From the NCBI RefSeq assembly GCF_009914755.1, contig NC_060935.1: a stretch of 64,000 nucleotides of DNA; one strand, written 5' to 3'. Origin of the DNA: the human T2T-CHM13v2.0 reference genome, Homo sapiens. Positions 35,256-51,389 of this stretch are shown here, piece after piece. The notes beneath the pieces were generated by a model. The model searched no databases. It saw only the letters and a program-made list of their open reading frames with translations, and was not told the origin of the DNA. Position numbers and translations under genes: made by a program. Each line of letters opens with the position of its first letter. Positions within the stretch are counted from its first letter, which is position 1.

Positions 35256-36218
35256 TCACTTGCCTCCCACAGCCTGCAAGTCCTTGTCACAGCTGATCTT
35301 GAACATAGCCAGCACCCGTGTTCTGATCTGTTTGGTTTTGGCACCATAGATGATGGGATTGATGACAGGAGGCAGCAGCAGGTAGATGTCACCCATGACA
35401 ACACGCACAATGGGATGAAGGCTGTTTCCAAAGCGGTGTACAACTGAGAGGCCAATAAGTGGCACATAGAAGGCGAGTACCACACCAATGTGTGACACAC
35501 AGGTTCCAAAGGCCTTGGCCCGCTCTGACTTGGAAGGCAGTTGCAGAACCGTTCGTATTATCAGAAAATAGGACAAGGAGATGAACATTACGTCCACGCC
35601 CATGACCAGCAGAATGGCAGTAAGACCATATACCACATTGGGCAAAGTGTCTGCATAGGCCAACTTCATTACATCCTGGTGGACACAATAGGAGTGCGAG
35701 AGGACATTGGAGTGGCAGAAGGCCAGCCGCTTGATCAGCAGAGGCAGTGGGAAAAAAAAGAGGGATCCGCGGACCACAGCCACGATGCCAATCTGGGCTG
35801 TTACTGTATTGTTGAGCACTGCAGCATGGCGCAGTGGGTGGCAGATGGCCACATAACGGTCAAAGGCCATGGCCAGCAGGATGGTGGATTCAATGGCTGA
35901 GAGGGCATGAATAAAGAACATCTGGGTAAGACAGGCCTCAAAGCTAATCTCTCGGGAATCAAACCAGAAAAGGGCAAGGATCTTAGGCATGGTGGATGTG
36001 GATAAGGCCAGGTCAATGGCTGCAAGCATGCAGAGAAAGAGGTACATCGGAGCGTGCAGGCTGCGTTCCGTCCTTACGATGAAGACCACGATGCAGTTTC
36101 CAAACATTGCCACTACATACATGGAAAGGAGGGGGAAGCCAACCCAGAAATGGGCTTTCTCTAATCCTGGGATACCAATAAGCACAAAGGTGGCATGTGT
36201 GAAGTTGCAGGAACTCAT
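35256..36218 (-). CDS. OR51E2: Olfactory receptor 51E2 (PSGR, short-chain fatty acid receptor), 320 aa
   Basis: ATG at 36218-36216, MSSCNFTHATF...DKDLQAVGGK, 963 nt, all OR motifs intact; H104, F155, L158, H180, Q181, S258 and R262 fall at the expected positions. Confidence 0.98.
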   Translation of the reverse strand: MSSCNFTHATFVLIGIPGLEKAHFWVGFPLLSMYVVAMFGNCIVVFIVRTERSLHAPMYLFLCMLAAIDLALSTSTMPKILALFWFDSREISFEACLTQMFFIHALSAIESTILLAMAFDRYVAICHPLRHAAVLNNTVTAQIGIVAVVRGSLFFFPLPLLIKRLAFCHSNVLSHSYCVHQDVMKLAYADTLPNVVYGLTAILLVMGVDVMFISLSYFLIIRTVLQLPSKSERAKAFGTCVSHIGVVLAFYVPLIGLSVVHRFGNSLHPIVRVVMGDIYLLLPPVINPIIYGAKTKQIRTRVLAMFKISCDKDLQAVGGK

Positions 36219-36267
36219 AGCTGGAACTGAGGAGGGGTGACTGGAGAGGGTGAGGTCACACTGGCAG

Positions 36268-36290
36268 TCTGCAGGGACATAGAGCACAAT
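36268..36290 (-). promoter_or_regulatory. OR51E2: Splice acceptor of the OR51E2 coding exon (exon starts 36268)
   Basis: Minus strand attgtgctctatgtccctgcag|ACTGCCAG, 50 nt before the ATG. Confidence 0.85.
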
Positions 36291-38564
36291 CAGAGAATGC
36301 CCTGGAAACTTGAAACTGACATCCCACCCCTTTTGTCTTCTCCCACCCCCACTTAGGGTCTTTCATAAGCTCTGAGGCCCTCTTCCAAAGGCGGGACTGT
36401 GACAGATCAAATTCATTTATGCATCACTACTCTCAAGGTTTATTTAAATTTTTAAAAGGGAATCTTGGGAGAGCAATGCTTTTTCCAAAATGTAATTCCC
36501 TCAGATTCTTCCTACTGGTCCATACCTTCGTTGCCTGGATATTTGTTGGCCCTTTTTTTTCTGATAGGTGTTAAGAGATACACTTTTGGGAGCTCCTTCC
36601 AGATAAGGCTGCCTTTCTCATTTTACTTTCCCTGCTTCCCTCCCCCCACTTTCTTTCTTTCTATTATTCATTCATTCCAGAAGCATTACTAGCATAATAT
36701 ATGCATTTAATTCATGAGAAAGGGAGAGGCATGATCACAGAGGAATCTTCCTGTTTAGACTTGAAACATGAGTAGAAATTAGACAGAGTGGAATAATGGG
36801 TGTTCCAAGGCAGTGAGGATAGGAGATAACTTTGCAAATTTTCAGGATTCCCAGTCCTCAATTCTAAAGTCAGCCAGAGGAATAAGAAGCACAGCAATGA
36901 CACTTTTTTTTAAAGCTTAAAAGAATATAAATAAACAAAAACTAAGAAAAAAATGCCAAAAGTCAATCTCTTTCGGATTAAAGGAAACTCATCTGTGGTC
37001 ATAAAATCAAGGTAGTGGCTCCCTCCGATGACTTCTTCAGAGATGAAGGTGCTGGCAGGACACTGGTGAGTACCTCCGCACCTGAAAGCTTCTTCCAAGG
37101 CCATTTTAATTGCATCCAAGGATAGTTTGAGTTGAGTCCTTACTTTGGAGAAGTATTATTAATTTTACAATGATATTTTTAGAGCTTTGTCTTTCCTGAA
37201 ACTTGTGCCAACAAGTCATTCATCTCAGGGGAGACATTTCTTTTTTAGAAGCCCAGTGTTGCTTTGCCCCAACTCCCTACCCTCACCCAAACACCTGGGC
37301 TCTGACTTCATGAAACTTCTTCTCTGCTAGGTTGCCTAGGTGCCCTGGTCTTTAGAGCTAATTTTCTCTAAAAAGCCAAAGCCTTGGCTGCAAGGCCTAA
37401 CTTTTGGAAACAAATGATGCAGTGTCTTCATTGATCATCTGTTTCATTGAAACAGGTTAGCTTGCTTATATTGCACTCCCCCAACCCCAGAATTCTTCAC
37501 TCATCATCTGAGTTCTTACTGCAGCTGGGAGATGCCCTTCAGTTTGGCCTTAATGTAGAGGGGTTAGATACCAGTGATCTTAAAGTACAATATGATAAAA
37601 TTAGTACAAAGAGATTTGAACTGGATTCTCCCCATCTTGGATAAGCAAAGAAGGACAGATTTGGGGTTTGAAGGTTACAAAACCCATACTTCTGCCTGTA
37701 TTTTCTCTTCTCCACCTTCAGAACTTGTGCAGACAAAACAGCTAAGCTCCTTGACAAATATTAAATCCCATATTTGGCTCCCAGTTGCTATCAGAACATG
37801 AAAAGCCCTTTTCAGAAGCAGATGATTGCATCCTTTAGTGAGATACAAGATAGTTTGCATCTTGCATCCATCCATCCATTTCTGTATCCGTCATAGCTTG
37901 GGGAAGGGGATATAGAAATTTAAACAAATCATACTGAAATATATGGGACAGAACTAAGGAACCTTCCCTGAAGAGAGGTCAGATCACTAGACCACTGTGT
38001 TCCAGAGAAATGGGACCCAGGGTGAAGAAAAGAGCAGGCATGGAGGGAGAGCAAGGGGAACACAGGGACGTATATTTACTTTCTTAATGCCTTTTGCCCA
38101 TGCTACCACATGCAGTGCTGACAGATAACAAGAGTCTTTATTGGACCCAGAGCTGGGTACTTTCTTAAGCCCTCTCTCTGCAGAGCATATTTTCTGCCTT
38201 GCTGGTACCTGCACATGCTTACTCGAGTATAGGACTTTAGGCTATCATCTCATTTCCCAAAATACCTGTCCTGAAAGACCTCACGTCACCTTCCCATGTT
38301 GCCTGGCATCCTGCCTAAAGTAGACTCCCTGCTAAACCCAATTTCAGTTTCTCTTTGGGTCCGAATGTGACTGTTGCATTCATTCTCACTTGCCTTTCCT
38401 GATTGTTAGCTAAGACTCTGGGACATTTCTTCCCAGCCCATAAAGCTGTGGATGGGACACAAGGGCTTCTCCCTGCCCTGACTTGAAACAGTATGTGGGG
38501 TCTTCAAGGTCCCTTAGGATGGCAGGAGCTAAGGCTGCCTGACCCCAGGTAAGGGTGCACTCAC

Positions 38565-38760
38565 CTGAGAATGGTACAGTCCTACTTAGAAAGAGCAGCT
38601 GGAGCTGGTTTTGCTTTCTGGTTCAGGCCTTTTTAATAATGCCACTCAGAAAGCCCATGGGAACAGGCAGTGAGAGTATGAACTGAGGCCCCAGGGACTT
38701 GGCAGACAGAGGAAAAACATCTCCATGTCCACTTGTGTGCCATTCCCATGGGCTTCCCAC
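38565..38760 (-). promoter_or_regulatory. Candidate proximal OR51E2 promoter and short first exon
   Basis: Donor CAG|GTGAGT at 38565/38564, TATTAAAAA at 38638-38630, and three O/E (EBF)-like CCCNNGGG sites at 38653-38662, 38688-38697 and 38744-38753. Confidence 0.5.
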
Positions 38761-41559
38761 TGTTCCTGTCCAGGGAGAGCAACCTCAAAGCACCCACTGC
38801 CTCTTCCATCACTTCCACACTCACATATACAGGGCTCTCGACAATCTGCTCCCACTTCTCCAAGCTAAACCAAGCACACACAGTCAGCCACAGGATTAGT
38901 GTGTTTCTTCATGTGCCACTCTGCTAGACGCAGCAGACATCATATGTGACTAGGCATGGTCCTTGGGCTTTAGGAGTTTGCATCCTCTCTAAAAATACAA
39001 AAGTATAGTTCCATAATTCAAAATAGGGGCATGCAATTCTCCATATCTTTCCCTAACCTTTCTTCTGGTTAACAAAACAGCCCTTAATGTATCAAAGCTG
39101 CTCTTCATTGCTCCTAGATTACAGATAAAGCCCAGATGATATGACAGCTTTTTGTCCTAGGTCATATAGTTAATTAGTGATAATATTGGTTGGAGAACCA
39201 GGTATTCCGACTGTTTATTCACATTAAACAAATGTTTGTCAAAGGCTTACAATGTTATAAGCAAAATAGATAAAAAAAACTCACCCCAACTACCTTCTCC
39301 AGGATATTGAGGTATCCTCAGTACCTCATGATGCTTGATGGCTGTCTTCCAGTGACGTGTCCCCTACGTCATACCCAGCAGGGTTACCTTCATACTTTAT
39401 TAATATTTAACACTAACCTGTTCTATCTGCCATCCTTTCTAAGTATGCCTCACACATGAGTCTTGCTTTGTCATTGTCACTGTAATCTTTGAACACAGAA
39501 ACAGAAGTACTTCCATCAGCCATTAAGTATTTATTGGTCATCTATATCTGGCAATGGAGTTAATTAATTCATTCATTGTGTAATAAGCACATTCTCAAGG
39601 CTAGTTTTGTGCAGGCACTGTGCTGAGTTTAGGGTGCCAGAGGTGAATAAGACAAAGTCCTTGCCTTCAGGGTGGTCATACACACCTACCCAAACAAACC
39701 TGAAATGGTATGAAAGAGCAGTGAATGCCACAGATTTTTATAGGAACTTGAGAAGGGTATTTATTTAGTCATTGGGTGGGTCCAAAAAGAGGGTATTTCA
39801 GCAGGCAGAAAATCATGAAAGAAACAGAATTTTCTATAGAAGAATTACGAAGAGTTGTAGCTTGGCTGAAGCATAGAGTCAACCAAAAAGGAAAGAGAAA
39901 CTGGAGAGGTCAATGGATGTGAACTGATGATATGCTGTGAACTCAAGGACTTCATCCTGTAGGAATTGGGAGGTGAATAAATGGTTTTAAGCAGGGACAT
40001 CACAACTAGACATGTGTTTCAGATTGCTATTACAGAAGCTGTTGGGAGGGTGAATTTGAGGAGGACGAAGTGGAAGTGCTTATGAATTTAGTCATGTGAG
40101 ACAGGAACTTAAGATACATAGCATTTCCTCATCCTTCACATCCAATTATTCAACCGATCTTGTCTATTTTTCCTTCTAAAAATCTTTTGCATGTTTCCTC
40201 TTATTTCCATCTTCACCACCACTACCATGTTCACGTAGCTACAACAGTGGCCATGTGACTACTAGTGCTCTGGCTTTTAGGAAAGTCCCCAACTCATTGT
40301 GAGCTTATCCATCTTGGTCAGAGCATGACATTTGTTCTGCAACCCACCCAGTCTCGGTGTCTACATTACCAATTTCCTATAGATGGAAGCTTATAAGCTG
40401 CCAGGACTGTTGGACAGGAGGACTGTCCACAGGTTAGCATTTGTGAGGTGAGGTGGGGGACGAGAATCTGCAGAAGTTCTGTGAACATCTCAGTTGTCCT
40501 TGAGGTTGACATTCCCTTTTCTCCTTTCCATTTTTAGGACTTTGAGTATCTCCATCCTTTTCCTTCAGCTCTATTTGCTATCCTTTGTAGTAGTAGTGTA
40601 CAGAAACAAATAAACAAAAAATCTAGTCTGTAGGCCTGTATCATCTGAGCTTTTCCATCTTTCCACTTTGGACCTGCCTGTAGCTTCTCTGGATTTTTGT
40701 TTTTGCTTCATTGTGAGTTATAGATATGAAAAGATGATCTGCAGGGGTACGTATTAGGGAATAGAAGGGGAAAGAAATATGTAGAAATAAACTGGCAGTT
40801 TATTCAAAATATAAAACACCTCTTTAAAGTGGCCTCCTAATTTTTACTCTTACCTACATTCATTCACTAGACAAAGCAAGTTTTATGTTGGGAAGTGGAA
40901 ATAAAGCTTCACAAGATTAGGATCAGGGTATACTAGGTCATATGAAAAGGAGCAAACGTTTTATACTAAATGGCAGTACTTGGCACAGTATTCTCCAAAA
41001 TGTGAAATTTCATGAAAGTATATTTGTAGATATGAAGAACTTTCTGGTATAAAAGAACTTTGTTATCTTCTTGTGTGCCATCCGAATCCTTACACATCAA
41101 AGATAGTATTTCTTCATTAATTCAATGAAGAGTAAAAGTTACAATGGACCAGACACTATAGATAGAAATGTGGAAACAGCAGTGAACAGACCCAGTGCCT
41201 GGCCCCGAGAAGTGAGCTCAGAGTTTGTTGTGGGGAGAATGGTGACAAGAGAGTTTGGAAAGAGTTGTCTTGAGAGAGAAGAACAAGGTGCTGTAGGAGC
41301 ACCTGGAAAGGGCACCAGGCAGACCAGAGAGGTCAGGAAAAGTCCCTGAAGGAGAGCCCCTTCTATTCTAAGTCAGGAGAAGGAAGGGAGTGAGAATATT
41401 CTAGGTGGAGGTAGGCTTAAAAGGGTCAGGGGATTCTTTGCTGGGACTTAGGACATGCAGGTTGTTTGTTGTCTCTGGGGCATTGTACAGAGGGGAAGCA
41501 ATGAAGCTTAAGAGGTAAACAGAGCCAGATCATTAAGACATTTTACTATTTTTACTATG

Positions 41560-42700
41560 TGGCAGGCAGGCCCTGTTTTAGGGCTGGGAGATAGCATAAA
41601 TGGAACAAATTCTTTATTCTCAAAAACATCATGTTGTAGTAATGAAACTAGAAAATAAATAACATATATGTGATATACTGGGGTATAAAAATGCTAAAAA
41701 TTAAAAATAAGGCAGATAAAGATGAGAGTGAATTCAGGAGGAATTGAGGGAGAGGTGTTGTTGTTGTTATTATTATAACATCAAGGGCCCTGTAATGGGG
41801 TGCACTTGAGCAGAGATCTGTCTAAAGTGAGGTGTAAGTCACGTGGGTCTCTGGAGGACGAACATTCCAGGTTGTGAGAATAGCATGTGTGAACTCTGAT
41901 GTTGAAGCATGCTTGATGAGTTTAAGAAAATATTTGGAAGCTAGTGTGGGTGACATAGAGTGAATCACTGGCAGAGTAGTAGAAGATGATATTGGGCTGA
42001 TGGAGGAAATATAGATCATATAGATATTTATATGCTTTTATAGTGACTGTGAATTTTTCCTGGGTAAGACAGGATGCCCTTGGGGTATATTGAACTTGAT
42101 CTGCCTTGTGCATTAAACTAATCAGTCTAACTTCACTGTGGGGGGAAATAGACTGTAAAGCAAACGTGGATGAAGGAAGGACCACCAGAAAGCTGTTATA
42201 ATAATTCAGGTCCAAGATGATGGCTTGCATCACAGTGGTAGCAGTAGAGATGGTATAAATTGACTTGATTTTAGACATCAATATCAGAGAGATCTAGAAG
42301 AAAGGGTCACCAGGATTTACTAAAAGGTTAGATGTAGCATCGGGGTGATAGAAAGGCATCAGGGATAACTCCAAGTGCTTTGTCTCAACACATTGGAAGG
42401 TAGAGTTACTGAGTTAGAGAAGACTGTGGGTGAGCATGCTTTTTCCTTGATGGGGATATTAGTATATATTAGACGTTGATTCTAAGATGATTATGAAACA
42501 TTCAAGTAGTGATATTGATACACAGGCAGTGGGATAAGTCTGAACTACAAATATTAATTTGGACTTTGTCAGCATAGAGATGGTACTTAAAGACATGATA
42601 CTGGATGGGATGACCAAGGAAGGGATTATGACAAAGCAAAAAGGTCTGAGAACAAAGTCCCAGGACATTGCAACATATAAAGATGAAGAGTAACAATAAT
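41560..42700 (-). mobile_element. L2 LINE fragment
   Basis: Purine-rich antisense L2: ggaccaccagaaagctgttataataattcagg..agagatggtacttaaagacatgatactggatg. Confidence 0.6.
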
Positions 42701-42993
42701 TGAAACTGAAATGTTGTTGTCAAACAGGCTGAGGATTTGACATAATTCTTACAGTACTATAAATACTATAGTCACTTAATAAATTTCCTACAGGGAATGA
42801 TGAGGAAACCAGAAAAGAAACAGCCTATATGTAATATGTTGGGGAATAAAAATGCTAAAAATTAAAAATAAGGCAGGTAAGGATGAGAGTGAATACAGGA
42901 AGAAACTGAGGGAGAGGTATTGCTATTATAATTATTATAACATCAAGGGCCCTGTAATAAGGTGCAGTTGGCAGAGATCTCCATAAAGCGAGG
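41665..42993 (+). repeat. About 168-bp direct repeat pair (41665-41832 and 42826-42993)
   Basis: Shared ataaaaatgctaaaaattaaaaataaggcag and attattataacatcaagggccctgtaat. Confidence 0.9.
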
Positions 42994-43464
42994 GGGCAAG
43001 CCTGTAGATACGAATGATTACTTCTACTTCCTTTCTGGACCTGATACCAACTATACAGCCCATCTTAAATTAGTGATATTAGTGTGGCATTGAAATATAT
43101 GCTTTAAAAATTTTGAGAATTAATGGACACACCCAGGGTGGAATGAATTATCTTTCTGAATTGAGCCATTACATGACCATTATGACACAAATTTAAAAAT
43201 TCATAAGTAAATGACCATAATTCATTTGTAGTCACTTTCCATTTCTGCTGGGGCAGAATGTTGATGGAGGGTTGACAGAAATGCTGAAATATGCTTGAGT
43301 CAGGAAAGATCATCAGGTAGAAATATATCTGTAAGGTATGAAGATTTGATTTGGGCTTTTTCTCCCTAATTTGACTGAAAATTTCTAGAGGATAGAGTTG
43401 TGGTTTTTTTTAATTAATTTTTTTACTTCTTTATGTTTCCTAGTAAAAATTGCCTGAACTTCTC

Positions 43465-43605
43465 TCTATATTTATATTTATAAATATAAATATAATTTAC
43501 ACATATAAGTACATAATTTATAAATATAAGTTTATATATATAAGTTCATATAATTTTTACAAATATAAATTATATATAAATTATATACCTATATATTATA
43601 TTATA
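43465..43605. repeat. AT-rich low-complexity (TA)n-like tract
   Basis: Seen directly. Confidence 0.85.
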
Positions 43606-44264
43606 GGTAGCAATATAACATTAAAATTAAGAGTGTGGGGGACTCTGGAGTCAGTCTGCATGGATGTGCTCTGCCATCAGCAACACCAGTTACTAGCTGT
43701 TTAAGCAAGCTACTTAACATTTCATGCCTCAATTTTCTTATTGATAATTAAAGTGATTATCTTATAACATTGTTTTAGATATAAAATATGTTAATACATA
43801 CAAAAAACACTTAGAACCATGACTTGTCAGAGCAAATAATAAATGGCAATCGAAATTACTAGAACAGTTGGAAAATACTACCTATTTCTCACAAAGGAGT
43901 GACTTTTCTGTAATGTGTCATTCTAAAGGCTATGAAGTAGATGAGATAATAACAGAAAGGGTGTTGGCAGGGACAGAAGGCAACAACAGTTTGGACCCAA
44001 CAGTGGTGTGAGAAGGAGAAATTTTATATATAAGGCTAATTTTAGGCTGTTCATCTCTTCCATCCCATGTCTTCACCTCCTCATCTGGAAAATAAAGTAG
44101 TCAAACTAGCTGATGTTCTAGATACATTCCAGCTTTGACTTTAAATGATTATGTGCTTAGCTTCAATGGGCACCAGTTCTTTGGTTGTTTTTTGTTTTTA
44201 ATTGGAAACATGACCTGAAGTATACCATCTTGAGGGGTCCATCTAGTGCTAGAATTCTACAATT

Positions 44265-45194
44265 TTATGTTTCTTTGGAATGGAGAATTTTTATCACAGC
44301 TCTACGTATCTGTTTGGTTTTCACACTGTAGATGACAGGGTTCATCAAAGGGGAGGTCAGCAGGTAGGTGTTAGCAATCATAGTATGTACATAGGCTGGG
44401 GCTTGTTTCCCAAATCTGTGAACAATGGACAGACTGATCAATGGAATGTAATATATAGCAAAAGCCACAATGTGGGAGACACATGTACTGAAGGTTTCCT
44501 TCCTCTCTTCTGGGGAAGCAACGCTAAGGACAGTCCTAATGATCAAAACATAAGAAAGGAGGATGAGAAGTAAGTCTACACCAACAGTAGAGAACATGGC
44601 AGTCAGCCCAACTGCACTGTTGATTCTGGTGTCTGTGCATGAGAGCTTCATCACATCAGGGTGGTAGCAGTAGGAGTGGTGGAGTACTTGGCTGTGGCAG
44701 TAGGAAAGTCTTATAAGAAGTGCTACCATTGGTGTCAGCATTAGGAGCCCCCTGATGACACTTGCCACTCCAATTTGAGCTATTCTGGAGTCAGTTAAAA
44801 TCATGGCATACCTAAGGGGATTAGAGACGGCCACAAAACGATCAAAAGCCATGGCCAACAGCACTGAGGATTCCATGACAGTGAAGAATTTAATAAAGAA
44901 CATGTGGGACAAGCAGGCATTAAAGCTGATTTCCCTCACATTGAACCAGAATATACTCAGCATGGTGACCAGAGTGGATATGGACAGGCCGAGGTCAGTG
45001 GCGGACAGCATGGAGAGGAAATAGTACATTGGTTCGTGGAGGCTGGGCTGAGTGATGGTAGCGAAGAGGATCAGGCTGTTTCCCAAGAGAGCAGTTACAG
45101 AGAGGAAGCAGAAGGGAATGGAGATCCAGGTGTGGAAGGCTTCCAGCCCAGGAACACCAGTGAGCAGGAAAATGATGGAAGTGGAGGTGATATT
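44265..45194 (-). CDS. OR51C1P: Nested family 51 OR in the OR51E2 intron; main coding exon (309 codons plus stop) of a predicted 312-aa split-exon receptor; historically a pseudogene
   Basis: Uninterrupted 7TM frame (LHEPMY, MAFDRF, HSYCYHPD, HRFG, MNPVIYSVKTKQIR). There is no ATG before TM2; ACG at 45209-45207 sits at the expected start; in-frame acceptor ttgcag|AAT at 45194. The symbol comes from remembered gene order. Confidence 0.8.
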   Translation of the reverse strand, partial: NITSTSIIFLLTGVPGLEAFHTWISIPFCFLSVTALLGNSLILFATITQPSLHEPMYYFLSMLSATDLGLSISTLVTMLSIFWFNVREISFNACLSHMFFIKFFTVMESSVLLAMAFDRFVAVSNPLRYAMILTDSRIAQIGVASVIRGLLMLTPMVALLIRLSYCHSQVLHHSYCYHPDVMKLSCTDTRINSAVGLTAMFSTVGVDLLLILLSYVLIIRTVLSVASPEERKETFSTCVSHIVAFAIYYIPLISLSIVHRFGKQAPAYVHTMIANTYLLTSPLMNPVIYSVKTKQIRRAVIKILHSKET

Positions 45195-46529
45195 CTGCAA
45201 AGTTGACGTGATGAATTAAAAGTACAGAACGAGATGAGAGCTTAAACAAAAAAAAGCTACATTCATTTGTGTATTGATCGAATTAAAATAATTTTATTGT
45301 ACAGAAAACTGATGAGTATTTATATAATATGAAACTATGAATGGCTCATTTAAATTGATTAAAAAATGTCAGATTTCAACTGCTGTAGTGGGCACTTTGG
45401 TTTGTTTTTGAATTTGCCTTAGTGTACAATCTTTCTTCTCTAGGGCCCTTTGCTGGCAGCTATGTTTATATCATGTGACCACTCCTCTGATCGTTCTAGC
45501 CATAGATAACCAAACTAAGAATAAACACTTTACCCTGAGTTTGCCAATCATATTTCATTCTTTATGGCATGTTTAAATTGTGCTAAAGAGGTAGTGCATT
45601 ATTTTTCCTCTATGGTTGGCACCAGAGAAAAATACACTGGGGCTGTGGAACAGCAATATTACATTGGTCATAAGTGTGGAAAGCAGAGAAGCTTACAGAC
45701 AATTTGGGAAGCCAGAAAATATGAAGAAAGAGATCATTATAATACAAAGTAACACATAGGAAGTGACAAATAAATGGCTTCAGCATCTAACCATTAAAGA
45801 AACCCTTACAATATGATACCCGGCATCATATTTGGAAGAGATGGTTAGAACACAGACCTCCCACCAGGCTTAGGAAGACAGGAGGCTGCCCCCACCTGAT
45901 ATAATGTGCTGCCACGTTCCAACACAGCTCTCTCTTCAGTCTGCTGGAAGACTAGTTCTCCAGAACAGAATCTCTCTATTTTGTTAAGACATACTTCTTA
46001 GGAGATACCTAATTGAATGTTACTGTTTTGTTTCGGAGGGAAAAATATAACTTTATTGCAAACATCACATTTCTTTTTTCATAGAGTGGAGAATTGCAGA
46101 AAGGTAGATAGATGGGTATGGTTGAGTTGAAGACGGGGGTCTAGGGAAAAACAGAGATTAGGGTTGTGGCTGCAGAGGGCTCAATCAATGAGAGAGAGCC
46201 AGTTGCAGGGTAACTTCTTCAGAGGAAAAGAAAGGGTGCTGGGTGGCTGACAGTAAGTGTTGACAAAAGAGAGGATGGAGAGGAACCTCAACGTATCCAG
46301 ACTCACACATTCACCCTGATAAAGTGTCACCTCAAGGATCACCGGAAGAAGTCTTAGTGAAAAAAAAAGGGGGGGTGGGGGTGTGATTTAACTAAAATTA
46401 ACAGAAAACTAGATGAAAAACAAGAAATTATAGATTACACGATTTGGCCAAATAATGAAACTATAGCTTTAGATTCTGAAATTTACAGTAATGACAGTGT
46501 CCTCAGGCGAGTGATGAAAATATCTAAAA

Positions 46530-46780
46530 TGTATGATCAAACCTCTTAGAGAAATAAGAATTATAGTTAATGTATAGTATATTTCAAAAAAACTAAAAGA
46601 GAGAATTTTAAATGTTCACAGCACAAAGAAATGATAAATATTTGAGGTGATGGATATGATAATTAGCTTGATTTGGTCATTCCACAATGCATACATGTAT
46701 AACAACATCACATTTTACCCCACAAATATATACCATATTATTTGTCAACTAGAAATAAGATAAAATGATTTTGAAAAACC
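46530..46780 (+). mobile_element. L1MA 3' end fragment
   Basis: cacaaagaaatgataaatatttgaggtgatggatat..acatcacattttaccccacaaatatata. Confidence 0.75.
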
Positions 46781-46946
46781 AAAACACACTAAAAAGGAAT
46801 TACCAGAAAGAGAGCATTCAGTAGGTTTGTAGTATTTGGAGAAGGCTTTCTAGAAAAAGCAGTGCTTGAAAGATTTCTGTGTTTTATATAAGTTGAGACG
46901 AAGAATTCCCAGGCTTTCAGAACGGCATGTGTAAAAGTGTTGAGCA

Positions 46947-47249
46947 GGCTGGGCGCGGTGGCTCACGCCTGTAGTCCCAGCACTTTGGGAGGCCGAGGTG
47001 GGCGGATCACGAGGTCAGGAGATCGAGACCATCCTGGCTAACATGGTGAAACCTCGTCTCTACTAAAAATACAAAAAATTAGCCGGGCGTGGTGGCGGGC
47101 GCCTGTAGTTCCAGCTACTGGGGAGGCTGAGGCAGGAGAATGGAGTGAACCTGGAAGGCGGAGCTTCCAGGTGAACCGAGATGGCGCCATTGCACTCCAA
47201 CCTGGGCGACAGAGCGAGACTCCGTTTCAAAAAACAAACAAACAAACAA
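46947..47249 (+). mobile_element. AluY
   Basis: gagaccatcctggctaaca and gagaatgg; TSD aaaa(g/c)tgttgagca. Confidence 0.93.
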
Positions 47250-47977
47250 AAAACTGTTGAGCAACAGTGCACTTGTAACACTTCTCTTGATCTTGCTTTA
47301 CTATCTCAGGGACATTAACTGAGTATCTGGATCTTACATAGTGCTATTTTAGAAGCTAAAGGACAACACAAATAAAACCCCACTTAGAGAGTTTATAATC
47401 CAGTGAGGCAGAAAGAGCAGAACCGTTTTTCAATAATTTCAATATCTCATATACAGCGATGAATAATAAAAATGGTTATGAAAGTACAGAGGGGCTCCAT
47501 TTATGTCAATTAATTCTGGCTTTCATGATTTTTAGTTCCTACGCAATATCTGAGTTGTAATTTTTGTCATTGTGTTGTAGGACATTTTATGTAACCACTT
47601 AAAAAAATTAAATTGCTATTTGAATAATTTCTCTTTCATCCTAACTTCTTCATATCTCCCATTACCTCATTTCAACAATTTATTCATTGCCTATTTTCAT
47701 TCTTCTTGGTAGTTTTTTTCCTCCTTCTTGCCAAGAGATCATAAACAAAACAAAAGAAAACCATAGTGTATATATTTTGACCTGATCTGTGTTGGGCCTA
47801 GCAAAAAAAAAATGACTTCTCTCCTTTCCATCACTTTACAAGCATATCTTCCTGCATCCTTCCTACGTTCACGCTGGGCTCAGAGACAGAGGGTACCTTA
47901 TTCTTTTTCCTAGCCAATAACTCCACTTTAGCTCCTATCAACCAGAAACACTTAGTTCAGTTCAAACTGAACTAAAC

Positions 47978-48072
47978 TATACATATATATACGTGTATAT
48001 ATATATATACACACACATATATATATACACACACACATATATATACGTATATATATATACACACACACATAC

Positions 48073-48107
<35 letters not shown>

Positions 48108-48110
48108 TAT
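47978..48110. repeat. (TA)n/(CA)n compound microsatellite
   Basis: Seen directly; alternating purine-pyrimidine tract of about 130 bp. Confidence 0.95.
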
Positions 48111-51100
48111 GCAGGGAGCTGAGCTTGCTGTGTCAAGAGTCTAGGGACTCTTACTGAAAATAAAAAATGACTAATTTTAAATATCTACTACATGCCAGAC
48201 AGCGTCTATCAGCAGTAACAGAGACAAACAGATAAATGCTACTAGTTGTAGAGTGTATAAGGATAGGATGTATCTAATTGATAAGGCAGAAGAGATAATA
48301 GTGTGGAGTGGCAGATTTGGAGTGTGTGCATACATGAATGTGCCTGTGTGTGTCAAGAAGAACTAGTTCCAAGAATGTTAACAGAATGTATGCTTTATAA
48401 CTGTGTGAAGTTTTGATGGGTAGATGTGAGTTTATAAGGATGAAAAACAGGGGAAGTGTGCTTTTGCAGTGCCATTGATAAAATGAGGAGAGACATGAAT
48501 GAAAGAATAACATAAGCCAGTTTGTTGGATAACTACAAGAGAAGGGGTATATCGAAGTCTTAAATGTGAGGCTAGGTGCTGTGGGAAATGAAGCTAGAGA
48601 AAGCACCAGAGGTCAAATCATGAAAATCTTGAATTCCATGGACAGTGTAATGAACTTAAATTTTTGCAGAGCATCAAGAGCCAGACATTTCTAACATTTT
48701 ATTCACCTTTTATTGACCACTGGAAGCAAGGAGCTTTGCTTTTAATAAATAAATCATTTTCCATCTCTTCTCATTTAATGCCAACAAAATTCCTTTCCCT
48801 CTTTAGTATCTTGTTTAGTGCCATTGGTTGCTTTTTTGAAGTCTGCAATACTCAAGTTTTACTCTAACTCAACAATAAAAGCTTCCCACAGTTTTGTATA
48901 GATATTTCCAAACAATTCATTTCAACCAGGATATATTGAATAGTTTTCATAATTAGCCTTGTGCTTTGATAGTGAGGGATACAAGACATAAGCCCTGTTT
49001 CTCTCTCAATTTCCTGCTGTATCTTTTATAAGGATAAAAATTCCTTTGGAGAACAGTCTGCTTTTGTTTATTATTCCTTCACCTTCAGTAACAATCTGAA
49101 TTCTTTCCCTAATGACTCTGAAAATCCTCCAAATGATGTCACCCGTGATTTTCTACATGCCAAGTCCAAAAGTTTAATCTCAGATTTGTTTTTCTCTCCC
49201 TCATCTCAACTTTCAGCAATGTTTACCTCCTCCTCCTTGAAACTTTCTCCTTCATTAGCTTCAGTGATGGTTATTCTGTGAGGTTTTTTTTTTCCTGTTT
49301 GTTAAACAATGGTTTTGTTCTCTGCCTTATAAATTGTGGGATTCTAGAGGAGTCTGCTTTTCTCCCAAGAAGTACCTCTTCTTTTCTTGCTTTTCATATG
49401 CTCTCCTTGAGATATCTTGGTTATTCTCATGGCTTTAAATAGCACTTATATCCAGAAGACTCATAAATCTGCAATCTAATTATGGCATCTCCAGAGTTCT
49501 GTATTTTAAAAGTTAGCAGAATCTTTAACGCTGTGGCAAAGTTTCTGGTTTTAAGCGTAAAGGTAGTAATGAGACATGAAAATACAGTGAAGCAATCAAA
49601 CCTGTAATTTAGAAAAATAATTGACAGCATTTTGGAGAACAAAGCTCCTTGCTGCATGTGGTGAATAAAAAGTAAATAAAATACTGTGGCTACCCCTGAG
49701 GGACATCTCTACCCATCATCACTCAGTTACTTCAACTTCTATATGAGACAAATGGAACTCATTCTCTCGTCCCCTCCAAACCTGGCTCTTCCTCCTGCTT
49801 CATTTATCAGCAAACGACATCGAACTCTAGTAAATCATTGAATTAAAATTACTACCCACCACACACACACACATGTGTGCACACACATACCCTCCTCTTT
49901 CTCTCTCTCATCCCTTACATATAAAGATTAGTTTTTAACTGATTCTACTCCTGAAATGTAAAAGATGAGAACCTCGGGAGGTCTATATAAGAAGGCCAAG
50001 CAATTGTTAGTAGTGGGTATTTGCAGCTATTATTTCATTGCATTTTTCTTACATTGAAAAAATCTTAAGTGTTTATATTCAAGACAAGAGGGGGACTAAT
50101 GAATATCCTTAGAAGGAGGCACTAAATTTCCCCCAAGCTTCTCTTTTGTGCTGCCTTCACTCTAGAATCTTTCCGACCCATCCTCTCCAATCCATATATA
50201 CTTTCATTTTCTCTCTTGTGAAATAAGCTATATTCTCTCAACTAATTTTTCTGCCCACTCGGATTACAATGATGCTCCTCTTTCATTGCACTATTATAAG
50301 CTATAGCTTGTGGCTGTCTTAATCTGCTGAACTAGACCTTATAGTGTCATCAGTATTCTCCATGCTATTGTCAATGGTATGGCTATCATGTGTGACTGAC
50401 CTGGGTTCAGATTCTTGCTCAAACACTAACTAGTTTTGAGACCATGTACACCATTAATAAAAATATTACTCATAGAAATAGCTACCATTTACTGGACACG
50501 TGTTCTGTGAACATTATTGTCCTCAGTGCTTTATAAGCATTATTTTAATTCTTACTATATCATCATGTGACAAGTATTATTAGATTCACTTTAAATTCAT
50601 TTTTCTGGTAAAGACACTGAGTATCAGAAGTCTGAAACATATTTGAAATCACATACAACTGGTGAAAGTCAGAGCTGAATTTTTAACTCAGGTCTTTTTA
50701 ATTCCAAAGCTCGTGCTCTCAAAAACAATTGTTTTACTGAAATCTACAAGTAATATAAACTTTCTGTGACCCAGTTTCCTCATCTATAAGACAGGATATG
50801 CGCTGTGTCTAATACCAGTAGCTGGCAGGCAATGCGTTCGAAATTGGTAACTTTTCATTTTTAGTAATAGTTATTGGGCATAGAAATGAGATTCACTGAC
50901 TGTGATAAATATATCAGCACACTGATTAAACCATTTGACTAAAAACAAGTTATCTAACCTATATCAGGCAGAACGAAATACCCATTCTCTACGTATTTCC
51001 TGGGAATAAATAATTCTGAAATTCTACCGTCCTCCTCAGCCCACCATACCAACATCTAATCTAATTCTGCACATTGTGAGGAAATTACTCCCTGTGGGTG

Positions 51101-51158
51101 AGAAAGTCCAATTCATCTAGAGTCAAGCATTTTCACTGAACAAAACAGTTTTACTTAC

Positions 51159-51167
51159 AGAGCCCAT
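51159..51167 (-). CDS. OR51C1P: 9-nt coding micro-segment ATG GGC TCT (M-G-S): start of the nested OR and of the OR51E2 uORF
   Basis: Only ATG in exon 1, exactly three codons before a phase-0 donor, in frame with the 45194 acceptor. Confidence 0.65.
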
Positions 51168-51352
51168 ACAGCAGTTCGGCCTGTTCCTTTCAGGCTGACT
51201 CAGAAGGCTGAGGAGGCTTTAGATTCCAGGGGAGGGCCGAGCTTGCAAATATGAGGAGACTTATTCCAGCCTGACTGGAGACAGGCACAGAGCTGAAAGG
51301 CCAATTCCTGGTGGTGGTGCTAACTCACTGTGTCTTCAGGGTGTGGAGATTC
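51159..51352 (-). other. OR51E2: Distal first exon of OR51E2 (5'UTR), probably shared with the nested OR
   Basis: Matches my recollection of the OR51E2 mRNA 5' end (GAATCTCCACACCCTGAAG...GTATGGGCTCT). It ends at a strong donor TCT|GTAAGT (51158) and has a TATA box about 30 nt upstream. Confidence 0.85.
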
Positions 51353-51382
51353 CCAGAAGACTTCTTTTGCCTCATACAGTCC

Positions 51383-51389
51383 TTTTATA
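51383..51389 (-). promoter_or_regulatory. TATA box of the distal OR51E2/OR51C1 promoter
   Basis: ttttata on + reads TATAAAA on -, about 30 nt upstream of the inferred TSS. Confidence 0.7.

What the first reader, a model, noticed from the sequence alone, without database searches (positions are those of the whole stretch)
36215..51167. The same ATG opens a 20-codon uORF whose stop overlaps the OR51E2 start codon (ATGA)
Seen: splicing exon 1 to 36268 reads ATG GGC TCT ACT GCC AGT GTG ACC TCA CCC TCT CCA GTC ACC CCT CCT CAG TTC CAG CTA TGA = MGSTASVTSPSPVTPPQFQL*. The A of CTA plus TG of TGA is the OR51E2 ATG. The uATG context is intermediate (-3 T, +4 G) and the OR51E2 ATG has -3 G. Inference: OR51E2 protein from the distal promoter needs leaky scanning or stop-start re-initiation, so one ATG starts one receptor and dampens the other. 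This could uncouple abundant PSGR mRNA from protein level.
Basis: partly seen in the sequence, partly recalled or inferred. Interest (0 to 1): 0.8.

Follow-up and report, generated by a model that had tools for sequence, protein, structure and literature searches.

The report
Ordinary uORF ending on OR51E2 start
The prostate form of the OR51E2 (PSGR) mRNA really does carry a 20-codon upstream reading frame that starts at the neighbouring receptor's start codon and stops on top of the OR51E2 start, but this looks like an ordinary, probably mild brake on translation and not a special coupling device.

Summary
On the minus strand, the only ATG of shared exon 1 (51167-51165), spliced 51159>36268, reads MGSTASVTSPSPVTPPQFQL*. 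Its TGA (36217-36215) overlaps the OR51E2 ATG (36218-36216) as ATGA.

It is not more than chance gives. About 20% of dinucleotide shuffles of the 5'UTR produce a uORF ending on that stop, and 54.5% of human OR genes have uORFs (Barnes 2020).

The uATG is kept in mouse as the Olfr560 start. However, annotated mouse Olfr78 isoforms put it 193 or 1062 nt from the main ATG, in the wrong frame, so the ATGA arrangement is not conserved there.

Measured start-site strengths (Noderer 2014) are 53 for the uATG context and 93 for the OR51E2 ATG (consensus = 100). I expect roughly a third to a half of scanning ribosomes to be diverted, with OR51E2 made by leaky scanning. Stop-start re-initiation is unlikely: the upstream ORF is short and I found no TURBS-like motif nearby.

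The uORF is tied to the distal promoter, which is the prostate one (Olender 2016). In a 3-exon isoform the same ATG is in frame with OR51E2. No translation data were found.

Verdict: a new member of a known kind, of low to moderate interest.

The parts
51159..51359 (-). Shared first exon of OR51E2 (NM_030774.4) and OR51C1 (NM_001396051.1). It is 201 nt long and contains a single ATG.
   Evidence: Hub annotation. Sequence read. One ATG counted in the 251-nt 5'UTR. The stretch is unique in the window's own genome: 1 match, itself.
51382..51389 (-). TATAAAAG, 30 nt upstream of the annotated transcription start at 51359. This is a TATA-type distal promoter.
   Evidence: Read directly. That it acts as a promoter is inferred.
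51165..51167 (-). The uATG. It is the OR51C1 start codon and the start of the 20-codon uORF in the 2-exon OR51E2 mRNA. Context: tgctgtATGgg.
   Evidence: Measured context strength is 53 (95% CI 49-57) with the consensus set to 100 (Noderer 2014, Table S2).
51157..51158 (-). GT splice donor after codon 3 (phase 0).
36219..36268 (-). 50-nt leader of the OR51E2 coding exon. It is C-rich (23 C of 50) and carries uORF codons 4-19 plus the first two bases of codon 20.
36215..36217 (-). uORF stop codon TGA, which overlaps the OR51E2 ATG to form ATGA.
35256..36218 (-). OR51E2 coding sequence, 320 aa. Start context: ccagctATGag.
   Evidence: Context strength is 93 (86-101).
44265..45194 (-). OR51C1 second coding part. 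With the exon-1 ATG it gives 312 aa.
   Evidence: Barnes 2020 Supplementary File 3 lists OR51C1P as a split OR with 3 residues in exon 1, as in mouse Olfr560.
39285..39363 (-). 79-nt alternative middle exon (ENST00000532598). When it is included, the exon-1 ATG is in frame with OR51E2 and the frame is open, giving 366 aa.
   Evidence: hg38 coordinates come from the Barnes 2020 GTF. The exon was located in the window by its AG...GT borders and translated.
38565..38599 (-). Proximal alternative first exon (ENST00000641638, annotated as partial). As annotated it has no ATG.
   Evidence: Upstream ATGs appear if the exon really begins 60 nt or more further upstream.
36278..36280 (-). Intronic ATG 12 nt before the acceptor, in the uORF frame. 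Read-in or unspliced RNA would give a 21-codon uORF that ends on the same ATGA.

Best explanation
This is a real but incidental uORF. It arises because OR51E2 borrows the TATA-driven first exon of its neighbour OR51C1, and that exon carries OR51C1's start codon. On the 2-exon mRNA, the form reported for prostate, a minority of scanning 43S complexes start at the weak-context uATG. My rough estimate is 30-46%. Those ribosomes make a 20-residue peptide and terminate on top of the OR51E2 AUG. The rest scan past the uATG and start at the stronger OR51E2 AUG. The net effect is a constitutive, modest reduction of OR51E2 translation, about 1.4- to 1.9-fold at most, specific to distal-promoter transcripts. 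Ribosomes that finish the uORF mostly do not restart at the overlapped AUG. If they resume scanning, they first meet an 11-codon frame at CDS +22 and later Met33. The exact ATGA overlap is a by-product of exon and leader lengths and not a selected coupling device. What is shown: the sequence anatomy, the chance level, the published context strengths, the tissue-specific promoters, and the frame mismatch in mouse. What is inferred: that the uATG is used at all, and the size of the effect.
For: Anatomy. Chance: 13861 of 20000 leader shuffles keep the frame open, and 1017 of 5000 dinucleotide shuffles of the 5'UTR give a uORF ending on the ATGA stop. Base rate: 212 of 389 (54.5%) human protein-coding OR genes have a uORF (Barnes 2020 Table 1, PMC7055050, passages). 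In mouse, 67% of 805 Olfr mRNAs have one against 38% of controls (Shum 2015, PMC4627058, passages). Context strengths are 53 against 93 (Noderer 2014 Table S2). That paper gives k = 0.86 for converting relative efficiency into probability. Rule for overlapping uORFs: the main ORF is reached by leaky scanning, and translation of the two ORFs is mutually exclusive (PMC10275272 section 13). Exon sharing with OR51C1P is published for human and mouse (Barnes 2020 Fig. 4 legend). The distal promoter is assigned to prostate and the proximal one to olfactory epithelium (Olender 2016, PMC4982115, passages). Mouse: the uATG is kept as the Olfr560 split start, with 3 residues in exon 1. But the distances from uATG to the Olfr78 ATG are 9+133+51 = 193 (mod 3 = 1) and 9+869+133+51 = 1062 (mod 3 = 0) in the two annotated distal coding isoforms. 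The ATGA arrangement needs mod 3 = 2. The 5'UTR fold is unremarkable (z = -1.05 against 200 shuffles).
Against: There is no direct evidence that the uATG is used on this mRNA. No held paper mentions OR51E2 together with Ribo-seq. The two uORF/Ribo-seq catalogues I tried could not be read. The 30-46% figure is my own bracket (0.86 x 53/150 to 0.86 x 53/100). The paper's equation was not visible in the text I saw, so the scaling is uncertain. Conservation was judged only from mouse annotation coordinates, not from sequence, and primates and other mammals could not be examined with these tools, so lineage-specific selection is not excluded. The 5'UTR has only one ATG where shuffles have a mode of two, but one or none occurs in 31% of shuffles, so this is not significant. 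Overexpressed OR51E2 is cytostatic or toxic in LNCaP cells (PMC8024707, passages). That would give a selective reason for a brake and argues mildly against 'incidental'.
Confidence: 0.6

Rival explanations
1. The uATG is essentially skipped on this mRNA. Its context is weak (-3 T), so the uORF has no measurable effect on OR51E2 output, and OR51C1 is likewise poorly translated.
For: The context scores 53 of 100, roughly 85% of the way down the table of 65,536 contexts sorted from strongest to weakest (near part 120 of 141). No translation evidence was found.
Against: A value of 53 is still about half the consensus, not zero. GENCODE and RefSeq accept this same ATG as the OR51C1 initiator, on the ground that the initiator and splice junction are conserved in orthologues. 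It is the first AUG met by scanning ribosomes, 192 nt from the cap, in a leader without strong structure.
Confidence: 0.2
2. Stop-start coupling: ribosomes that finish the uORF re-initiate at the overlapped OR51E2 AUG by stepping back 1 nt. On this reading the uORF delivers ribosomes to OR51E2 instead of diverting them.
For: The ATGA overlap is exact. The uORF is short (20 codons), which in general favours retention of initiation factors (PMC10275272).
Against: For uORF-type re-initiation the restart codon is described as always downstream of the stop, with efficiency rising with distance. Overlapping or upstream restarts are described only for TURBS-dependent viral cases after long ORFs. The recalled TURBS core TGGGA occurs only at mRNA position 5, 247 nt upstream. 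The arrangement is not kept in annotated mouse isoforms.
Confidence: 0.07
3. A regulated stalling uORF: the peptide tail (…VTPPQFQL) or slow termination pauses ribosomes over the OR51E2 AUG. Queued ribosomes then block leaky scanners and enhance uATG use. This would resemble AZIN1 or AMD1 uORFs, and the brake would respond to eIF5A, polyamines or termination factors.
For: There is a Pro-Pro pair at codons 15-16. A terminating ribosome necessarily covers the main AUG. The uATG lies 57-60 nt upstream of the termination site, about two ribosome lengths (my arithmetic).
Against: There is no evidence that the peptide is conserved. The frame is not kept in mouse isoforms. A single PP pair is common by chance in a C-rich leader (23 C of 50). 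The comparison with AZIN1 and AMD1 is recalled, not tested.
Confidence: 0.05
4. The uORF mainly lowers the mRNA level, by triggering nonsense-mediated decay after early termination.
For: uORFs can trigger NMD (Shum 2015). After the uORF stop about 2.5 kb of mRNA follows.
Against: The stop lies in the last exon, 54 nt downstream of the only exon junction, so no exon-junction complex remains downstream (with the 50-55 nt rule recalled). Shum 2015 argues that most Olfr uORFs are not NMD targets, and uORF-bearing Olfr mRNAs are more highly expressed. The OR51E2 mRNA is abundant in prostate (8.5 FPKM; PMC3566163).
Confidence: 0.05

Closest known systems
uORFs of olfactory receptor mRNAs (Shum et al. 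2015, PMC4627058; Barnes et al. 2020, PMC7055050)
   Same: It is an AUG-initiated short ORF in the spliced 5' leader of an OR mRNA. It meets Shum's criteria: at least 30 nt, and a purine at -3 or a G at +4. Such uORFs occur in 54.5% of human and 86.4% of mouse protein-coding OR genes.
   Different: Here the uATG is also the annotated start codon of a second OR gene, and the stop shares three bases with the main start. In the passages I read, neither paper describes this particular uORF.
Shared 5' exons and split-CDS OR genes (Barnes et al. 2020, Fig. 4 and Supplementary File 3)
   Same: OR51E2/OR51C1P, and their mouse orthologues (Olfr78/Olfr560 in the supplementary GTF and File 3), are the paper's own example of 5' exon sharing. 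OR51C1P and Olfr560 are listed as split ORs with 3 residues in the upstream exon.
   Different: In the sections and passages I read, the paper does not draw out what this means for OR51E2, namely that the shared exon brings a start codon into its leader.
Out-of-frame overlapping uORFs that repress the main ORF (for example mouse Adipoq, PMC10501164; ATF4 uORF2, cited there)
   Same: The upstream frame is out of frame and runs past the main AUG, so the main ORF is reached only by bypassing the uATG.
   Different: The overlap here is only 3 nt (ATGA), not tens of nucleotides. The uATG context is weak. No stress-responsive arrangement with a second uORF is present, since the leader has a single ATG.
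Promoter switching that adds a uORF-bearing leader (TP53BP1 V3 transcript, PMC10193022)
   Same: An alternative promoter yields a leader with a short uORF, and this changes where ribosomes start on the same coding exon. In OR51E2 the distal promoter is used in prostate and the proximal one in olfactory epithelium.
   Different: For TP53BP1 the effect was measured. Here it is only inferred, and the proximal OR51E2 exon is annotated only in part.
Viral termination-reinitiation at AUGA/UAAUG with TURBS (caliciviruses, influenza B; review PMC10275272)
   Same: The stop and the start share nucleotides (ATGA).
   Different: In the viruses the upstream ORF is long and a TURBS element complementary to 18S rRNA is required. 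Here the ORF has 20 codons and no such motif lies nearby. This does not qualify as a member.

Membership tests
AUG-initiated upstream ORF (overlapping type) | An AUG in the annotated 5' leader, upstream of the main AUG, on a transcript supported by evidence | tested here: met
   The transcript is the RefSeq-selected model and GENCODE ENST00000396950. Exon 1-to-coding-exon junction reads were seen in prostate RNA-seq (PMC3566163) and the remote OR51C1P exon is reported for prostate (PMC4982115).
AUG-initiated upstream ORF (overlapping type) | An in-frame stop, with the frame different from the main ORF | tested here: met
   The distance is 59 nt (mod 3 = 2), and the TGA at 36217-36215 overlaps the ATG.
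AUG-initiated upstream ORF (overlapping type) | Ribosomes initiate at the uATG (Ribo-seq, harringtonine) | not testable with these tools
   No held paper mentions OR51E2 together with Ribo-seq. The catalogues could not be read.
AUG-initiated upstream ORF (overlapping type) | Represses the main ORF when present | not testable with these tools
   There is only a model estimate from context strengths of 53 and 93.
Conserved (selected) regulatory uORF | Start, frame and stop position kept in orthologues | tested here: not met
   The start is kept in mouse, as the Olfr560 initiator. The frame to the Olfr78 ATG is 193 (mod 3 = 1) or 1062 (mod 3 = 0) in the two annotated distal coding isoforms. The mouse leader in the coding exon is 51 nt against 50 nt in human. 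This rests on coordinates only; no mouse sequence was seen and other mammals were not examined.
Termination-reinitiation with TURBS (calicivirus / influenza B type) | Stop and restart codons within a few nucleotides of each other | tested here: met
   ATGA.
Termination-reinitiation with TURBS (calicivirus / influenza B type) | An upstream element complementary to 18S rRNA close to the overlap | tested here: not met
   TGGGA (the motif is recalled, not taken from a call) occurs only at mRNA position 5. The requirement for such an element is stated in PMC10275272.
Termination-reinitiation with TURBS (calicivirus / influenza B type) | Restart follows a long upstream ORF | tested here: not met
   The ORF has 20 codons.
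Split-CDS OR gene sharing a 5' exon (Barnes 2020) | The initiator lies in the upstream exon, the splice junction is conserved, and the joined ORF is intact at about 310-320 aa | tested here: met
   The joined ORF is 312 aa. An in-frame TAA at 45218-45216, with no ATG between it and the acceptor, makes the exon-1 ATG necessary. Supplementary File 3 lists OR51C1P and Olfr560. This applies to OR51C1, not to the uORF itself.

The most novel reading that the evidence does not exclude
One start codon has three fates set by promoter and splice choice. The single ATG of the TATA-driven distal exon can be (i) the initiator of OR51C1, (ii) the initiator of a 20-codon uORF that terminates on the OR51E2 AUG in the 2-exon prostate mRNA, or (iii) an in-frame initiator of a 366-aa, N-terminally extended OR51E2 when the 79-nt exon is included. 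The olfactory proximal-promoter mRNA, as annotated, lacks the ATG altogether. If the uATG is used efficiently in vivo, non-olfactory tissues would make much less functional OR51E2 per mRNA than olfactory neurons. That would be a built-in safeguard for a receptor whose overexpression is cytostatic in LNCaP cells.
Probability: 0.15. Interest if true: 0.5.

Novelty: new member of a known kind. Interest (0 to 1): 0.3.

Why it matters
OR51E2/PSGR is a widely used prostate-cancer marker and a candidate target, and its endogenous protein is notoriously hard to detect (PMC8024707). If the prostate-type leader diverts a third to a half of ribosomes, protein would be somewhat lower than mRNA suggests. 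Expression constructs or reporters built with and without exon 1 would then behave differently. The case also illustrates a general cost of OR genes sharing 5' exons with split-CDS neighbours: the neighbour's start codon becomes a uATG. The expected effect is small, and this kind of element is common and already described for the OR family.

Tried and rejected

(2) Cross-species sequence conservation could not be run, because none of the collections on hand holds mammalian genomes. As a substitute I used mouse annotation coordinates from the Barnes 2020 supplementary GTF and File 3. These give frames but not sequence.

(3) Ribo-seq and uORF catalogues gave nothing. The GENCODE Ribo-seq ORF paper is not held under the DOI or under the PMC id I recalled. 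The McGillivray 2018 supplementary zip yielded only 60 characters. These supplements may list the uORF, and I could not see them.

(4) One search was too loose: it asked for any 2 of 4 terms, and none of the 15 listed papers mentioned OR51E2. It was replaced, which returned 0 papers.

(5) The hits for 'AUGA' in PMC10193022 were 'AUG^a^' labels, not stop-start overlaps. I kept that paper only as a promoter-switch analogue.

(6) RNA structure as a modulator was rejected: the 5'UTR plus 60 nt has an MFE of -82.7 kcal/mol against a shuffled mean of -77.2, z = -1.05.

(7) A repeat or paralogue origin for exon 1 was rejected: it has a single match in the window's own genome.

(8) I looked for near-cognate starts with a purine at -3 and G at +4 in the leader. 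Three were found, none in the OR51E2 frame and none with a frame longer than 34 codons.

(9) uATG depletion of the leader as a sign of selection was rejected: one uATG or none occurs in 31% of shuffles.
Full report
OBSERVATION.

Reading the minus strand and joining the annotated exons by coordinates confirms the finding exactly.
- Exon 1 (51359-51159) contains a single ATG at 51167-51165, in the context tgctgtATGgg. Two more codons follow (GGC TCT), then a GT donor at 51158.
- Joined to the OR51E2 coding exon at 36268, the frame reads MGSTASVTSPSPVTPPQFQL and stops at TGA 36217-36215.
- The OR51E2 ATG is 36218-36216, in the context ccagctATGag, so the four bases ATGA hold both signals.
- The uATG is 59 nt upstream of the main ATG, and 59 mod 3 = 2, which is the frame needed for this overlap.
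- Joined instead to 45194, the same ATG opens the 312-aa OR51C1 frame.
- In the genome the OR51C1 frame has a TAA at 45218-45216 and no ATG between it and the acceptor. Human OR51C1 therefore depends on the exon-1 ATG.
- A TATAAAAG lies 30 nt upstream of the annotated start of exon 1.
- Exon 1 is unique in the window's own genome (1 match, itself).

IS IT MORE THAN CHANCE?

No. Once the position of the ATG and the 50-nt leader length are given, the only thing left to chance is the absence of a stop in the leader. The leader is C-rich (23 C of 50).
- 13861 of 20000 mononucleotide shuffles of the leader keep the frame open up to the ATGA stop.
- 1017 of 5000 dinucleotide-preserving shuffles of the whole 251-nt 5'UTR produce some uORF that ends on that stop.
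- The number of uATGs in those shuffles has a mode of two. One or none, as observed, occurs in 31%.
- The fold of the leader is unremarkable (z = -1.05).

WHAT IS ALREADY IN PRINT.
- Barnes et al. 2020 (PMC7055050; I read passages, section 7 and parts of supplementary files 1, 3, 4 and 5) use OR51E2/OR51C1P and their mouse orthologues as their example of OR genes sharing a 5' exon (Fig. 4 legend). The supplementary GTF and File 3 identify those orthologues as Olfr78 and Olfr560.
- They list OR51C1P and Olfr560 as split-CDS ORs with 3 residues in the upstream exon.
- They report uORFs in 212 of 389 (54.5%) human and 986 of 1141 (86.4%) mouse protein-coding OR genes, and remark that uORFs down-regulate translation.
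- Shum et al. 2015 (PMC4627058, passages) found uORFs in 67% of 805 mouse Olfr mRNAs against 38% of controls.
- Olender et al. 2016 (PMC4982115, passages) state that OR51E2 uses a proximal promoter in olfactory epithelium and the remote OR51C1P exon in prostate.
- None of the passages I saw describes this particular uORF.
- In the full-text library, only Barnes 2020 (journal and preprint versions) holds both 'OR51E2' and 'uORF'. No paper holds 'OR51E2' and 'Ribo-seq'.

CONSERVATION, AS FAR AS IT COULD BE TESTED.

No mammalian genomes are on hand, so I used the mouse annotation coordinates in the Barnes supplementary GTF.
- The mouse shared exon ends at 102759310. Olfr560's split isoform has 3 residues there. 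The arithmetic 3 + 927/3 = 312 aa, with an intron of 5397 nt, fits this. So the uATG is kept, as a start codon for the neighbour.
- The annotated distal Olfr78 coding isoforms include a 133-nt exon, with or without an 869-nt exon, before a 51-nt leader.
- The distances from uATG to main ATG are therefore 193 nt (mod 3 = 1) and 1062 nt (mod 3 = 0). Neither can end on an ATGA overlap.
- Even a direct, unannotated splice would give 60 nt, which is in frame.
The caveat is that I saw coordinates and not sequence, and no other species.

HOW STRONG ARE THE TWO START SITES?

The FACS-seq reference table of Noderer et al. 2014 (PMC4299517, Supplementary Table S2) sets GCCACCAUGGG to 100 and has a maximum of 150.
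- The uATG context scores 53 (95% CI 49-57).
- The OR51E2 context scores 93 (86-101).
- The table is sorted from strongest to weakest. These entries fall near part 120 and part 37 of 141, so the uATG is roughly 85% of the way down and the main ATG about a quarter of the way down.
- The paper gives k = 0.86 to turn relative efficiency into a probability, but the equation itself was not visible to me.
- Scaling to 100 or to the maximum of 150 gives my own bracket of 0.46 or 0.30 for capture at the uATG.
- That corresponds to a 1.4- to 1.9-fold loss for OR51E2 if none of the captured ribosomes restart at it.

MECHANISM.

The review of termination-reinitiation (PMC10275272; passages and section 13) states three relevant points.
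- With out-of-frame overlapping uORFs, the main ORF is reached by leaky scanning, and the two translations are mutually exclusive.
- After short uORFs, the restart codon lies downstream of the stop.
- Restart at or upstream of the stop is known for TURBS-dependent viral cases after long ORFs.

Here the upstream ORF has 20 codons. The TURBS core as I recall it (TGGGA) occurs only at mRNA position 5.

I therefore commit to leaky scanning as the route to OR51E2, with the uORF acting as a constitutive, mild diverter. Ribosomes that finish the uORF and resume scanning would first meet an ATG at CDS +22. It is in the same frame as the uORF and opens 11 codons. After that they would meet Met33. Neither gives a full receptor. 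EJC-dependent NMD is not expected, because the stop lies in the last exon, 54 nt past the only junction (the rule is recalled).

ISOFORM DEPENDENCE (new here).
- The annotated proximal first exon (38599-38565, flagged as partial in GENCODE) has no ATG, so the olfactory form as annotated lacks the uORF. ATGs would appear if that exon really begins 60 nt or more further upstream.
- With the 79-nt exon 39363-39285 (ENST00000532598) the distance becomes 138 nt. The exon-1 ATG is then in frame with OR51E2 with no stop, giving a 366-aa protein with a 46-residue N-terminal extension. An open frame of that length is expected by chance about once in eight; this is my estimate, (61/64)^43. That isoform also gains a 3-codon uORF.
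- An intronic ATG at 36280-36278 is in the uORF frame, so read-in RNA would carry a 21-codon version ending on the same ATGA.

COMPARISON AND MEMBERSHIP.

It meets the sequence definition of an AUG uORF of the overlapping type. It is a further example of the uORF-rich OR leaders and of the shared-exon arrangement already published. It does not meet the tested features of TURBS-type stop-start coupling. It fails the one conservation test I could make for a selected regulatory uORF. Use by ribosomes and a repressive effect could not be tested.

VERDICT.

The feature is real and its logic is neat: one ATG starts one receptor and taxes the other. But it is ordinary by base rate and by chance, probably mild in effect, and not conserved in its special detail in mouse. 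Overexpressed OR51E2 is cytostatic in LNCaP cells and the endogenous protein is hard to detect (PMC8024707, passages). This leaves room for a useful brake. I give 0.15 to the bolder reading, in which promoter and splice choice set tissue-specific OR51E2 translation through this ATG.

Novelty: a new member of a known kind. Interest: 0.3.

Noticed in passing
window 39285-39363 (-), with 51165-51167 and 36216-36218: In the 3-exon isoform (ENST00000532598) the exon-1 ATG is in frame with OR51E2 and the frame is open. The result is a 366-aa protein with a 46-residue, rather basic N-terminal extension. GENCODE annotates the CDS from the canonical ATG only. A 3-codon uORF (MRY*) also appears in the 79-nt exon.
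   Followed up: partly
window 36278-36280 (-): An intronic ATG lies 12 nt before the OR51E2 acceptor, in the same frame as the uORF. Unspliced or read-in transcripts would carry a 21-codon uORF (MSLQ plus the same tail) ending on the same ATGA.
   Followed up: partly
window 45207-45218 (-): Human has ACG at 45209-45207, 15 nt before the OR51C1 acceptor. By coordinate arithmetic this is exactly where mouse Olfr560's single-exon isoform places its ATG. An in-frame TAA lies at 45218-45216. Human OR51C1 has apparently lost the local start and relies on the exon-1 ATG.
   Followed up: partly
window 51382-51389 (-): TATAAAAG lies 30 nt upstream of the annotated start of the shared exon 1. It is a TATA-type promoter, which suggests a focused start and a well-defined leader.
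   Followed up: no
window 38600-38830 (-): Upstream of the 35-nt, partially annotated proximal first exon there are seven ATGs within 265 nt. Whether the olfactory isoform is really free of uORFs depends on its true 5' end.
   Followed up: partly
window 36197-36195 (-) and CDS codon 33: The first ATG after the uORF stop is at CDS offset +22. It is in the uORF frame and opens 11 codons. The next in-frame Met is codon 33, inside TM1. Any ribosomes that restart would make products that are not a full receptor.
   Followed up: no
uORF peptide and OR51C1 N-terminus (51159-51167 plus the following codons): Both products of the shared ATG begin Met-Gly and have Ser or Thr at position 6 (MGSTAS, MGSNIT). 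This resembles the N-myristoylation consensus as I recall it. It was not tested and may be meaningless for a receptor N-terminus that faces outward.
   Followed up: no
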